This document shows, one piece after another, positions 1-3,000 of a stretch of 9,661 nucleotides of DNA. Position 1 is the first letter of the stretch; each line of letters begins with the position of its first letter. The position numbers are program-made. This DNA is from a virus (Monodnaviria; Loebvirae; Hofneiviricota; Faserviricetes; Tubulavirales; Inoviridae): IMG/VR virus record IMGVR_UViG_2531839409_000002; one strand, given 5' to 3'.

Positions 1-3000
1 ATGATTTTGAATCACTGTCGATAGTAGCCAGTTGACGGCCAGTGTCAACGATTCCCGCCAGATTCTGCCATCCTTACCATTGGTGCGCATAATGTGCGAC
101 TCGTTATGTTGAAAAGGCCGCTGCGAAAATGGCCTCCGCAGCGGCCTCTTTAGCATAACGTCATTGTGCGAACCAATTAATTATTTCTTGTCTAATATAG
201 TACTGCTTATATTAGAATTCTTAGCTGTAAAAAGCATATCTGCTTCTTGGTATATTTCACCTGAACCACCACTAAAGTTAAACTCGATGTTTAGGTCATT
301 ATAAGTAATGCTTGGAGAGTATTTTCTGTTTATTATAATATAGCCAACTGAATTTGCAGGAACTTCAACCCTTTCTTTCGGTTTTTCCATAAGATATCCA
401 TTATCATTAACAAATTCCACATTGTATTTCTTATACACCCTTATTTCTTCTTCTTCTCTTTTCTTTTCATCTTTATAATCAAATGTATCAACATGTTCGG
501 AAATATATTGAAAGTTTTTATATATTCTCCATCCGCCTGAAACTTTCAGTGCTTCTGATGTTTTATTAATTATTCTAAATTTGAACATTATTTGATTTTT
601 TTCTATCTTGGCATCTATTATTTCAATAGGGTATTCATTCGCTCTTAGATTGTAATTTTCAGTTATCAGTCCATTACCTATAGGATTAATCGAAAGTCCA
701 GAATTGTACATATTGTTATAAATCATGTAGTTATATGCTTTCAATGGGCCCGCGAGAGGGTTGTCTTCTGTTTGGATACTGATGACCATATAACTGAAAA
801 ATGCAGCAAAAATAGCACCGCCTAAAATAAAAGAACCTGCACTCGGTGGCACTGAGTCTTTTGAAAGGTATGTTTTCCCGTCAGTATCTTCTGATCTTAT
901 GGAAGGCATGGTACTTTTATCAAGAACTCTTGTTCCTTCAATCAAGAGCACCATGGATATTTTTTTATTTGCTAATATTCTATCTATCTTCACAAAAGAA
1001 CCTTCGGTAGTTGCATCATGATCACTTGCAATTACAGTACAAGACATACCGTTTGGGACTTTTATTTCTACATTTTTTTCTTTATCCTTACCTTTATTAA
1101 ATACTGATGCATTTATTACTATTGCATTGTCAGATATTGAGGTTTTACTCAAGGAGTTCCAACAGGATAAGTAAAGTTGTCTTTTCCTAAATATAGATAA
1201 AAACTTATTGAGGACTAATGCCACAAAAAAAGAAGTAACTACTTTCAATGTATCAGTAATCAAGTCCGGCATCTTTTTTCTCATTTTACTTAAAATCCAG
1301 TGTTTTAACTGATCAAAGATGGTCAGATAAAATGTAAAAATTTAGTATTTGAATATTACCCTAGTTAACCTAGGGTAATATTATATCAATAATATGAATT
1401 TCTTCGGTGCCACCAATAAAGCAGACCGTATCCGACGATAAGAATTCCAAAAAACATCAGAGACATTCCCCAGCCAGTTCCGTACCACGAAACCATATCA
1501 TCGAAAACCAACCCACCCATTTCACGTACTCCGGCAGCTTCCTTAAGAATTGGTTTGAATACCGGAATCAGAAGGGCGATCGCCAGTGGGGCACCCCAGC
1601 GAACAAGACCTGTTTCCATTTTGATCCCGAAAAAGATCCCCGCACCGACAACAAGCAACCAGACTATCAGGCCAGGCGCAGTTTCCAGTGCTGTTTGCCA
1701 TTCAACATCGAAAGTTTTCATTAACCAGGCAACAACTGCCAGACAGAAAGCAAATACGCCCACGACAACCAATTCAACGCCGCTTGTTTCGTTATTTCTA
1801 CTCATCATTTTGATCCTTTTTCATTGTTCAAAATTCGCACAATAAAGAACGTGCAGTGTTGGTAATACTGCACGTTTGTCTCATTCCTGAGACTGTTAAT
1901 CCTTTTACTCTTCTCCAGACACCGCTTTTTTCATAAACATTTTAGTACTGTAAGTGTATGAACTTAAGGCAGAAACCTGCCTTGCGAGTGCCAGAATATC
2001 TTGTTTTTCCAGTGTCCTGATGTTCCACACGATGAAATTATGTGCGTTAGTGGTTTCTTCATCAGTATATCCATCCGCAGAAGTGATTAGCTTCCGCTCG
2101 GTAGCTTCTTCTTTAACATCAAGAGCATAGCCATAAGCTAAGGTGTTTAAGTCTGCACCCGTAATTTTAGCTATCTGAATGATGTCACTGAATTTAGGTT
2201 CAGTTTTGCCGGACGCTATCCTGACCAGCGTACTCACGCTAATGCCAGTCTTCTCGGCCAGTTCTTCATAAGTCGAGTGTTCCAGAATTACCTTTTTGAT
2301 ACGTTCTGCTCTCTGTTTGTCCGCCATAACTTCATGCTCATTGTTGCCCATCTACTTGGCTCCATCTTAACAGTGGTTTTTCAATAGTTAGATTTGATGC
2401 TCATTTTTGACAATTTAAACATTGCAAATGTATTGACTGTCAGATCTGAGCATATTACATTGTGACCATTCAATCTGCTCACAAATGACTATTGACACAT
2501 ATTTTGATGGGTGTGACTACTTATGATCGACTGGTTTACCGGAATCCTGCCTTGCACACACCGACCGTTACCGGCTGGTAGTGTCGTCAGCGTCGATGCT
2601 GACGGTGCAGTGGAGTGGGAAACAGTAAAACGGTTGACCGTTCGCGGTTCGCATGAGTCCACAATGAAAGTAAGGTCTGTTGGATCTGATGGTGAAGGTC
2701 GGGCAACACATCTCTACATTGACGGTAATCCATCAAAGTTTTTGCAAGGTCACTCTGTTATCGGTTCCGACGATTTGCAAGGGTTGGTGTTAACAGCTTA
2801 CGCCAGAATATTGGCATTACTGCATATTCCTCATGATCTACCATCCTATCGGCAGGTCATGGAAGGGCAATTTAAGATCTCGCGCATCGATATCAATTAC
2901 ATGTATTCATTGTCAACATTAGAAAATGTCCGCGCATGGTTATATGCCGCAGAATTTAAAGCTAAAACTCGCCACGGTCGCGCCTGTGGTAAAGGTGGCA

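What the first reader, a model, noticed from the sequence alone, without database searches (positions are those of the whole stretch)
1386..1808. 140-aa four-helix membrane protein upstream of the cargo gene, with different base composition
This is a small polytopic membrane protein with a strong RBS, transcribed in the same direction as the 367-aa gene and immediately upstream of it. Its GC content is clearly higher than its AT-rich neighbour, so the cargo region appears mosaic. Small multi-TM proteins next to larger effectors are common as immunity proteins, holin-like proteins or membrane partners of defence systems. Whether the two genes form one system is open.
Basis: partly seen in the sequence, partly recalled or inferred. 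Interest (0 to 1): 0.6.

Follow-up and report, generated by a model that had tools for sequence, protein, structure and literature searches.

The report
Conserved membrane gene beside swappable prophage cargo
The ORF is a real, strongly conserved four-helix inner-membrane protein of unknown function that filamentous prophages of E. coli and its relatives carry next to their repressor gene. It sits at the entrance to a slot where unrelated, often defence-like, cargo genes are swapped, so it is not a dedicated partner of the 367-aa gene beside it.

Summary
Window 1386-1808 (minus strand) encodes a 139/140-aa protein with four hydrophobic helices and an AAGGA ribosome-binding site. Its GC is 46.8%, against 31.7% for the 367-aa gene 101 nt downstream.

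The window is one 9567-bp unit of a CUS-1/YpfPhi-like inovirus prophage of E. coli, bounded by dif-like sites.

The protein matches only PHROG 4174 (unknown function). Nothing matched in Pfam, NCBIfam, PADLOC, PDB or BFVD. dN/dS is 0.02-0.13.

- **Occurrence in 5426 complete E. coli genomes:** the gene is in 128, the 367-aa gene in 18, and the two are adjacent in 17.
- **Breakpoint:** homology between prophages ends at the ORF's stop codon. Beyond it lie at least ten unrelated cassettes, including TIR, AbiJ-like and DpnII/MboI-nuclease-like proteins.
- **Conserved position:** relatives at 27-73% identity hold the same place (Rep, then regulator, then 4TM, then cargo) in other inovirus backbones.
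- **Dispensable:** YpfPhi, whose Rep and repressor are identical, lacks the gene.
- **Independent partner:** the 367-aa family occurs elsewhere without it.

A dedicated two-gene system is therefore not supported. My best guess is an autonomous, lysogen-expressed inner-membrane exclusion or defence factor. This is inferred, with probability about 0.35. Interest is moderate.

The parts
1386..1808 (-). 139/140-aa four-helix inner-membrane protein (PHROG 4174; RefSeq WP_000089314.1). The likely start is the second ATG at 1805. By my inference from position it is the counterpart of CUS-1 'orf1a'.
   Evidence: ORF. PHROG 4174 E=1e-84. No Pfam, PADLOC or NCBIfam hit. dN/dS 0.02-0.13. AF2 four-helix bundle, pLDDT 85. 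Loop charges fit an N-in/C-in topology.
1814..1818 (-). Ribosome-binding site AAGGA, 5 nt before the first ATG and 8 nt before the second.
   Evidence: Read from the sequence. Conserved in the relatives that carry the 4TM gene.
1849..1894 (-). Conserved non-coding joint between the stop of the regulator gene and the left arm. Hairpin 1 is GTCTCA-GGAA-TGAGAC (1879-1894). Hairpin 2 is AACGTGCAGT-ATTACCAAC-ACTGCACGTT (1849-1877). A T-rich tract follows. It is possibly a terminator or attenuator that gates read-through into the 4TM gene and the cargo.
   Evidence: Fold z=-3.3. The pattern is present in 40 of 59 loci fetched, including YpfPhi and Brenneria, which lack the 4TM gene. A 28-nt stretch is invariant, and two pairs of hairpin 1 show compensatory changes.
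1905..2351 (-). HTH_3 regulator (RstR-like repressor candidate). It is the first gene of the leftward unit and is divergent from the Rep gene.
   Evidence: Pfam HTH_3 1.6e-9 and PHROG 3557. The YpfPhi review calls the identical YPO2273 an RstR homologue.
1352..1382 (-). Perfect 13-bp hairpin specific to this cassette (AAUAUUACCCUAG-GUUAA-CUAGGGUAAUAUU), just after the 4TM stop codon. No U-tract follows it directly. The homology breakpoint with other prophages lies here.
   Evidence: Fold z=-4.5. Junction alignment. In other genomes homology starts at window ~1377-1379.
181..1284 (-). 367-aa AT-rich cargo gene (PHROG 17621). It has two hydrophobic segments by my reading of the sequence, and is a 29%-identical full-length homologue of the 369-aa UTI89/CUS-1 'orf1'. 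This is the swappable cassette.
   Evidence: Present in 18 of 5426 E. coli genomes. The family also occurs outside inoviruses.
112..150 (-). Strong GC-rich hairpin followed by UUUUC: the likely intrinsic terminator of the leftward unit.
   Evidence: Fold -38.5 kcal/mol, z=-6.1.
82..114 (.). dif-like junction GGTGCGCATAA-TGTGCGACTCG-TTATGTTGAAA. It forms the distal conserved flank of the cargo slot and marks the end of the phage unit. Window 9568-9661 repeats 1-94.
   Evidence: Sequence. The resemblance to E. coli dif rests on my own knowledge of the dif sequence. The review describes imperfect dif sites between tandem YpfPhi copies.

Best explanation
The ORF is a genuine gene for a ~139-aa inner-membrane protein with four helices. 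The predicted topology is N-in/C-in, with two acidic periplasmic loops. The second loop carries the family motif AG..(x)..WYGTxW.

It belongs to a small, uncharacterised family that is essentially confined to temperate, dif-integrating inoviruses of Enterobacterales. There it is the first gene of the accessory 'left arm'. It lies downstream of the repressor gene and a conserved hairpin joint, and directly upstream of a slot where unrelated cargo cassettes, many of them defence-like, replace one another.

It is an accessory gene, not a core gene, and it is not a cognate partner of the 367-aa protein.

Most likely (inferred, not shown) it is made in the lysogen by read-through from the repressor promoter. 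It would then act alone in the inner membrane as an exclusion or defence factor, for example by blocking the inner-membrane step of entry of incoming (filamentous) phage. In role, though not in sequence, this resembles P22 SieA or lambda RexB, which are also encoded beside the repressor.
For: **Real and constrained.** dN/dS is 0.02-0.13. There are 39 family clusters among 1.8 billion representative proteins. The AF2 model is confident once the family alignment is used.

**Fixed position.** The order Rep, then regulator, then 4TM, then cargo recurs in several settings:
- CUS-1-type prophages of E. coli;
- a second E. coli backbone with an unrelated regulator and about 80% Rep DNA identity;
- Y. 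enterocolitica, 73% identity;
- a 38%-identical relative (L043/L044);
- a 27%-identical relative (L046).

**Accessory.** Y. pestis YpfPhi has identical Rep and repressor proteins, but carries 135-aa and 87-aa soluble-looking ORFs in place of the 4TM gene and its cargo. The review shows that YpfPhi is infectious.

**Not a cognate partner.** At least ten cassette architectures follow the same protein. The 367-aa gene is next to it in 17 of 128 genomes. The 367-aa family occurs without it. An intact copy stands alone in Lonsdalea, with no phage gene called beside it.

**Defence neighbourhood in three kinds of element.** These are the inovirus slot with TIR, AbiJ_NTD4+DUF7014 and DpnII-MboI cargo; a relative next to a type II CBASS; and a relative next to a ThiF/E1 operon in a Tn7-like element.

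**Topology.** Loops 1 and 3 are net acidic; loop 2 and the C-terminus are net basic across the family.

Against: Expression in lysogens is assumed from gene order only. A terminator-like hairpin lies between the repressor gene and this gene, and no sigma-70-like promoter was found on its strand nearby.

YpfPhi, which lacks the gene, still gives partial superinfection protection, so the gene is not needed for that phenotype.

The defence-neighbourhood argument rests on a handful of loci. It could simply reflect the gene flanking a hotspot.
Confidence: 0.4

Rival explanations
1. It is a housekeeping or regulatory membrane protein of this phage lineage. It might tune virion production, lysogeny maintenance or envelope stress, with no exclusion or defence role. 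On this view it merely happens to border the cargo slot and serves as a homology anchor for cassette exchange.
For: The position next to the regulator is fixed across several backbones. Purifying selection is strong. About 78% of Rep-positive E. coli genomes carry it: 128 against 165.
Against: YpfPhi makes infectious, integrating phage without it. Intact copies survive in places where no neighbouring inovirus gene was called, in Lonsdalea and Pantoea. Remote relatives sit outside inoviruses, next to CBASS and in a Tn7-like element.
Confidence: 0.25
2. It is a shared membrane component, such as a channel or anchor, used by whichever cargo gene sits downstream. This would parallel lambda RexB being triggered by RexA. 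The left arm would then be a modular two-part system with a constant membrane effector and a variable sensor.
For: The protein is always immediately upstream of and co-oriented with the cargo, often with gaps of only 25-35 nt. Its DNA alleles cluster by cargo type rather than by phage backbone. Its architecture resembles RexB: about 140 aa, four helices, beside the repressor.
Against: The cargo proteins are of kinds that PADLOC files as single-gene candidates (PDC-S32, PDC-S35) or that carry their own effector domains such as TIR or a restriction-endonuclease fold. The 367-aa family is found without any 4TM relative. The protein barely changes (dN 0.003-0.02) while its neighbours are entirely replaced. 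Allele-cargo linkage is expected from physical adjacency alone. There is no similarity to RexB.
Confidence: 0.15
3. It is the dedicated immunity, antitoxin or membrane partner of the 367-aa protein.
For: In E. coli, all 17 genomes that carry a near-full-length 367-aa gene have it directly next to this ORF. Both proteins look like membrane proteins (the two hydrophobic segments of the 367-aa protein are my reading of the sequence).
Against: The converse fails: 111 of the 128 genomes with the ORF have other cargo. The protein is essentially identical beside unrelated cargo. 367-aa homologues occur alone elsewhere. A cassette-specific hairpin and the homology breakpoint separate the two genes.
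Confidence: 0.05
4. It is a lysogenic-conversion factor that changes host physiology or virulence, for example envelope properties during infection, rather than phage-phage interactions.
For: CUS-1 and YpfPhi modestly increase host fitness in animals, and the genes at the prophage ends are the unexplained candidates. Many carriers in the listed hits are human isolates.
Against: YpfPhi gives its fitness effect without this gene. Carriers also include plant-associated Pantoea and Lonsdalea. No supporting domain or motif was found.
Confidence: 0.1

Closest known systems
CUS-1 'orf1a' / the attL-adjacent ORFs of CUS-1 and YpfPhi (Gonzalez et al. 2002; Derbise & Carniel 2014, PMC4266046)
   Same: The phage type and position are the same. 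UTI89, which I recall to be of the O18:K1:H7 lineage in which CUS-1 was described, carries a 95%-identical gene between the HTH regulator and a 369-aa ORF next to hipA/dif. The review describes two ORFs of unknown function at that end of CUS-1.
   Different: The name 'orf1a' is my inference from position, because the 2002 paper could not be read. YpfPhi carries unrelated ORFs there. No function has been published in the papers I could search.
Lambda RexB (with RexA)
   Same: RexB is 144 aa and, from my own knowledge, a polytopic inner-membrane protein. It is encoded beside the repressor and co-oriented with it in the immunity region, and is expressed in lysogens (my own knowledge). It is part of an exclusion system.
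   Different: No sequence relationship was found (hhalign probability 0.1%). There is no RexA-like partner. The gene order differs (cI-rexA-rexB against regulator-4TM-cargo). The neighbour is variable rather than fixed.
P22 SieA and similar inner-membrane superinfection-exclusion proteins
   Same: SieA is a small (162-164 aa) polytopic inner-membrane protein made by the prophage. It acts alone and blocks DNA delivery at the inner membrane (PMC10883804).
   Different: SieA has three predicted helices and no detectable similarity. tblastn of the ORF against 50,697 phage records found nothing. Exclusion activity of the present protein is untested.
Defence hotspots of P2-like phages and P4-like satellites (Rousset et al. 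2022, PMC9122126)
   Same: In both, a fixed position in a temperate element is flanked by conserved sequence, and unrelated anti-phage genes replace one another there.
   Different: Here the element is a filamentous phage that integrates at dif, and the slot lies between a conserved 4TM gene and the dif-like end. I found no description of such a slot in E. coli inoviruses. Neither E. coli defence survey that I searched mentions filamentous phages.

Membership tests
PHROG 4174 (phage protein family of unknown function) | Full-length match to the family HMM | tested here: met
   E=1.1e-84, residues 2-140 on profile positions 1-139 of 140. A 31%-identical relative also matches.
Inovirus core proteins (Rep pII/X, ssDNA-binding pV, coat pVIII, pIII, pVI, pI/Zot, pIV secretin, small pVII/pIX) | Similarity to a core family, and presence in all functional relatives | tested here: not met
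   No Pfam hit. Rep, G5P and the major coat protein are assigned by Pfam to other ORFs. Zot, secretin and the DUF2523 pVI-like protein are annotated or Pfam-marked in related loci. The gene is absent from infectious YpfPhi.
Lambda RexB family | Sequence homology to RexB | tested here: not met
   hhalign probability 0.14%, E=0.41.
Lambda RexB family | A fixed RexA-type partner gene | tested here: not met
   The neighbouring gene is variable. PADLOC finds no match for either gene.
Cognate immunity / antitoxin of the adjacent 367-aa protein | Strict co-occurrence and co-variation of the two genes | tested here: not met
   17 of the 128 carrier genomes have the pair. The protein is near-invariant across unrelated cargo. 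The 367-aa family occurs alone.
Holins | Small membrane protein encoded in a lysis cassette next to an endolysin | tested here: not met
   None of the nine window ORFs scanned is an endolysin. The element is a non-lytic filamentous phage.
Known defence-system membrane components (PADLOC models, e.g. Kiwa KwaA, Zorya ZorA/B, CBASS/Pycsar TM effectors) | HMM match to a PADLOC model | tested here: not met
   No family at E<=1. A remote relative also has no match.
Superinfection-exclusion inner-membrane proteins (functional class, e.g. P22 SieA) | Polytopic inner-membrane protein encoded in the lysogeny region | tested here: met
   Four predicted helices. It lies directly downstream of the regulator gene on the same strand.
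Superinfection-exclusion inner-membrane proteins (functional class, e.g. P22 SieA) | Blocks entry of a superinfecting phage when expressed alone | not testable with these tools
   Needs infection or transduction assays.

The most novel reading that the evidence does not exclude
The 4TM protein is the founding member of a new family of stand-alone inner-membrane anti-phage (exclusion) proteins. Together with the invariant hairpin joint upstream, it marks the entrance to a defence-cargo hotspot in XerCD/dif-integrating filamentous prophages of Enterobacterales, a hotspot I could not find described. Alternatively, it is a constant membrane effector serving interchangeable sensor genes.
Probability: 0.25. 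Interest if true: 0.65.

Novelty: new member of a known kind. Interest (0 to 1): 0.42.

Why it matters
Filamentous prophages at dif are common in extraintestinal E. coli and occur in Y. pestis. The ORFs at their ends are the unexplained candidates for the modest fitness effects these phages have on their hosts.

This work shows that one of those ORFs is a conserved, strongly constrained membrane protein. It also shows that the position behind it is a swap-slot filled with TIR, AbiJ-like, nuclease-like and unknown genes. That turns a 'hypothetical protein' into a concrete, cheap experiment: express one 420-nt gene and challenge the cells with phage.

The slot itself is a source of candidate anti-phage genes carried by inoviruses. 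The two E. coli defence surveys I searched do not mention filamentous phages.

Tried and rejected
- **First structure model.** The first AF2 run, using close homologues only, was poor (pLDDT 65). It was replaced by a run with the diverse alignment.
- **Phage records.** megablast of the whole window and tblastn of the ORF against 50,697 phage records found nothing.
- **RexB homology.** Rejected.
- **Potassium-channel idea.** I considered the 'VGYG' in helix 4 as a K+-channel signature. I rejected it because the motif sits inside a predicted helix and only the first G is conserved in the family.
- **Lipoprotein idea.** Rejected: FAFC is not a lipobox, and the Cys is not conserved.
- **Further relatives.** A profile search of the large protein collection with the diverse alignment found no named or Pfam-annotated full-length relative.
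- **RNA families.** Rfam found nothing for the hairpins.
- **Promoter.** The consensus scan found no convincing sigma-70 promoter for the ORF on its own strand.
- **Failed or empty look-ups.** The search for related loci with the diverse alignment failed for lack of a conserved stretch. The 2002 CUS-1 paper is not held. Two E. coli defence-island papers do not mention filamentous phages.
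Full report
**What the window is.**
ORF and family scans show a complete filamentous-phage genome:
- a Rep protein (Phage_CRI + G2P_X_C, 2523-3575);
- a G5P-like ssDNA-binding protein;
- a coat protein;
- further downstream, large ORFs that correspond to the genes annotated in related prophages as a hypothetical pIII-sized protein, a DUF2523 protein, Zot and a GspD-type secretin.

These genes are on the plus strand. Three genes lie on the minus strand, divergent from Rep: an HTH_3 regulator (1905-2351), the ORF in question (1386-1808) and a 367-aa ORF (181-1284).

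Window 9568-9661 repeats 1-94. The window is therefore one 9567-bp unit bounded by a dif-like sequence at 82-114.

Bases 1-2500 are 100% identical to E. coli SCU-101. There, tandem copies sit next to hipBA, where by my own knowledge dif lies. A 9565-bp circular record, NZ_CP128883.1, looks like the replicative form.

The phage is of the CUS-1/YpfPhi type. The Rep and regulator proteins are 100% identical to those of the Y. pestis prophage. The literature describes these phages as XerCD/dif integrators with ORFs of unknown function at both ends.

**Check of the observation.**
- The RBS AAGGA is at 1818-1814.
- There are two adjacent ATGs. Relatives have only the second (AAAAGGATG instead of AAAATGATG), and RefSeq annotates 139 aa.
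- Hydropathy shows four peaks.
- GC is 46.8% for the ORF, 31.7% for the 367-aa gene, 24.8% for the spacer and 40-45% for backbone genes. The odd one out is the neighbour, not this ORF.
- The gene is real. dN/dS against orthologues from E. coli, Lonsdalea, Yersinia and viral contigs is 0.02-0.13.

**The protein.**
- It matches PHROG 4174 (unknown function) over its full length. It matches nothing in Pfam, NCBIfam or PADLOC.
- Close homologues (63-99% identity) are all 'hypothetical protein'. They come from Escherichia, Klebsiella, Salmonella, Citrobacter, Phytobacter, Pantoea, Lonsdalea, Yersinia, Kosakonia and Pectobacterium.
- An exhaustive profile search of 1.84 billion representatives found only 39 clusters at E<=1e-3. 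Nearly all are 110-160 aa.
- A diverse alignment shows two conserved prolines in helix 3, an A/W-G motif after it, WYG(T)xW before helix 4 and a G-Y-G in helix 4.
- With that alignment AlphaFold2 gives a four-helix bundle at pLDDT 85 and pTM 0.71.
- Across the family, loops 1 and 3 are net acidic, while loop 2 and the C-terminus are basic. By the positive-inside rule this suggests N-in/C-in, with the conserved loop in the periplasm. This is an inference.
- No solved or predicted viral structure resembles it specifically.

**Comparative genomics: is it one system with the 367-aa gene?**
Counts in 5426 complete E. coli genomes:

| Feature | Genomes |
|---|---|
| The ORF | 128 |
| The 367-aa gene | 18 |
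| Rep (two backbone types, >=90% and ~80% identity) | 165 |
| Intact 367/140 junction | 17 |

In the other 111 genomes that carry the ORF, homology starts at window ~1377-1379. Junction alignments show that similarity ends within a few bases of the stop codon. Even the last codon varies: YY*, YYW*, YHW*, YYG*.

Behind the ORF lie at least ten cassette architectures built from about 13 protein families:
- the 367/369-aa family, in which the window protein is 29% identical over its full length to the UTI89 protein;
- a 309-314-aa AbiJ_NTD4+DUF7014 protein (STM4504 family, PADLOC PDC-S32);
- a 264-aa DpnII-MboI-fold protein plus DUF6953;
- a 368-aa protein with a CAP12/Pycsar-type TIR domain (PDC-S35);
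- a 91-aa zinc-ribbon protein plus a 159-aa protein;
- several pairs of unknowns.

Conversely, relatives of the 367-aa protein sit in Enterobacter, Proteus and Pseudomonas islands with no 4TM family member in the flanks.

A dedicated pair is therefore not supported.

**Mosaic structure.**
Against the window, CUS-1-type prophages are 99.5-100% identical in the regulator and Rep genes. They are only 90-98% identical in the ORF and the 96 nt upstream of it, with a step at ~1905.

The same ORF, at 91-98% identity, is joined to a second backbone whose regulator is unrelated.

ORF alleles cluster by cargo type, not by backbone. The unit of exchange is therefore the whole left arm between the regulator's stop codon and the dif-like end. 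Within that arm the ORF is the constant part.

**Core or accessory?**
The ORF is accessory. YpfPhi has 135-aa and 87-aa ORFs there and no family member, yet it is infectious and integrates. Brenneria alni also lacks the gene.

Even so, the position is conserved at long range: in Y. enterocolitica (73% identity, an IKe/Ff-like backbone), in a 38%-identical relative behind an HTH_3 regulator in another hipA-adjacent inovirus, and in a 27%-identical relative.

Intact copies persist in Lonsdalea with no phage gene called beside them, and in Pantoea next to a truncated regulator gene.

Two remote relatives lie outside inoviruses. One is 580 bp upstream of a type II CBASS that has its own SAVED-2TM effector. 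The other lies directly after an operon with a ThiF/E1 protein. By my reading of the sequences that operon also encodes a JAB-like protein and a small ubiquitin-like protein, all within a TniQ-bearing element.

**Transcription context.**
- Between the regulator's stop codon and the ORF lie two hairpins (1879-1894 and 1849-1877) and a T-rich tract.
- This joint is present in 40 of the 59 loci fetched. It includes a 28-nt invariant stretch. It occurs even where the flanking genes are unrelated, as in YpfPhi, Brenneria and backbone 2. Hairpin 1 shows two compensatory pair changes.
- It is the most conserved sequence of the region. It may act as a terminator or attenuator that sets how much transcription enters the left arm. 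This is unresolved.
- No sigma-70-like promoter was found for the ORF itself.
- In most cassettes the cargo starts 25-110 nt after the ORF, which is compatible with co-transcription.
- In the window, a cassette-borne perfect 13-bp hairpin (1352-1382) without a U-tract intervenes.
- A strong terminator hairpin (112-150) ends the unit next to the dif-like site.

**Interpretation.**
Shown:
- it is a real, constrained, four-helix membrane protein;
- it is an accessory gene, but positionally fixed in the repressor-side arm of these inoviruses;
- it borders a cargo swap-slot rich in defence-type genes;
- it is independent of the 367-aa gene.

Inferred:
- it is expressed in lysogens;
- it acts by itself in the inner membrane as an exclusion or defence factor.

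My probability estimates are:

| Reading | Probability |
|---|---|
| Real gene | 0.98 |
| Inner-membrane 4TM protein | 0.9 |
| Not a cognate partner of the 367-aa protein | 0.85 |
| Autonomous exclusion/defence role | about 0.35 |
| Phage housekeeping/regulatory role | about 0.25 |
| Shared effector for the variable cargo | about 0.15 |

**Comparison with known systems.**
In role and placement it resembles lambda RexB and P22 SieA, but there is no homology. The slot resembles the defence hotspots of P2/P4 elements, in a different kind of phage.

The gene itself is already in databases as a hypothetical protein and, by my inference, is the 'orf1a' of CUS-1.

I rate it a new, uncharacterised member of a known kind: a prophage accessory membrane protein at a cargo hotspot. 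Interest is moderate.

Noticed in passing
window 1849-1894 (minus-strand sense); also L052 4327-4353, L056 1315-1341, L010 5934-5960: Two adjacent hairpins between the regulator's stop codon and the first left-arm gene contain a 28-nt invariant stretch. They are conserved across E. coli, Yersinia, Pantoea, Lonsdalea and Brenneria, even where the genes on both sides are unrelated. Hairpin 1 shows two compensatory pair changes (GTCTCA/TGAGAC against GTACCA/TGGTAC). The element is more conserved than any neighbouring coding sequence. Its function is unknown (terminator/attenuator, or a sequence-specific site).
   Followed up: partly
window ~150-1385, and the corresponding slot in L002-L009 and L018-L039: The position between the 4TM gene and the dif-like end behaves as a cargo hotspot. 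It holds a TIR-domain protein, an AbiJ_NTD4+DUF7014 protein, a DpnII-MboI-fold protein with DUF6953, a zinc-ribbon pair and several unknowns. I found no description of such a hotspot in E. coli filamentous prophages.
   Followed up: partly
window 105-175: About 70 nt around the terminator hairpin next to the dif-like site match hundreds of places in E. coli. There are 989 places in all, 483 of them on plasmids, at 88-94% identity in the listed hits. This is a widely shared short element of unknown meaning.
   Followed up: no
window 1352-1382: A perfect 13-bp AT-rich palindrome (TATTACCCTAG..CTAGGGTAATA core) belongs to the 367-aa cassette and sits exactly at the homology breakpoint. It has no U-tract, so it is not an obvious terminator.
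   Followed up: partly
window 1-94 and 9568-9661; NZ_CP128883.1: The window ends repeat each other, so it is one 9567-bp phage unit. A 9565-bp circular 'plasmid' record in strain TUM14759 appears to be the phage's replicative form.
   Followed up: partly
L001 (E. coli SCU-101) against window 6507-8776: The SCU-101 tandem copies are 8433 bp apart. They are annotated with a 378-aa Zot-domain protein and no secretin, whereas the window has a 341-aa Zot and a 414-aa secretin. This is probably a deletion variant, even though bases 1-2500 are identical.
   Followed up: no
L060 4978-7393; L041 6125-12314: Remote 4TM relatives (22-31% identity) lie next to other defence-type loci. One is an operon with a ThiF/E1 protein plus, by my reading, JAB-like and ubiquitin-like proteins, in a TniQ-bearing element. 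The other is a type II CBASS with a SAVED-2TM effector. In L041 the relative follows two small unknown genes (108 and 161 aa), and the three might form a unit.
   Followed up: partly
window 181-1284: The 367-aa cargo protein is a diverged (29% identity) full-length homologue of the 369-aa UTI89/CUS-1 ORF. Both appear to have an N-terminal and a central hydrophobic segment (my reading of the sequences). The family also occurs in Enterobacter, Proteus, Providencia, Morganella, Pectobacterium and Pseudomonas, and at least one member is annotated as plasmid-borne. It has no known domain.
   Followed up: partly
L056 199-959 (Brenneria alni): In a related inovirus that lacks the 4TM gene, the left arm holds a 131-aa protein followed by a 120-aa protein that looks polytopic and hydrophobic. 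This is a different small membrane protein in a similar place.
   Followed up: no
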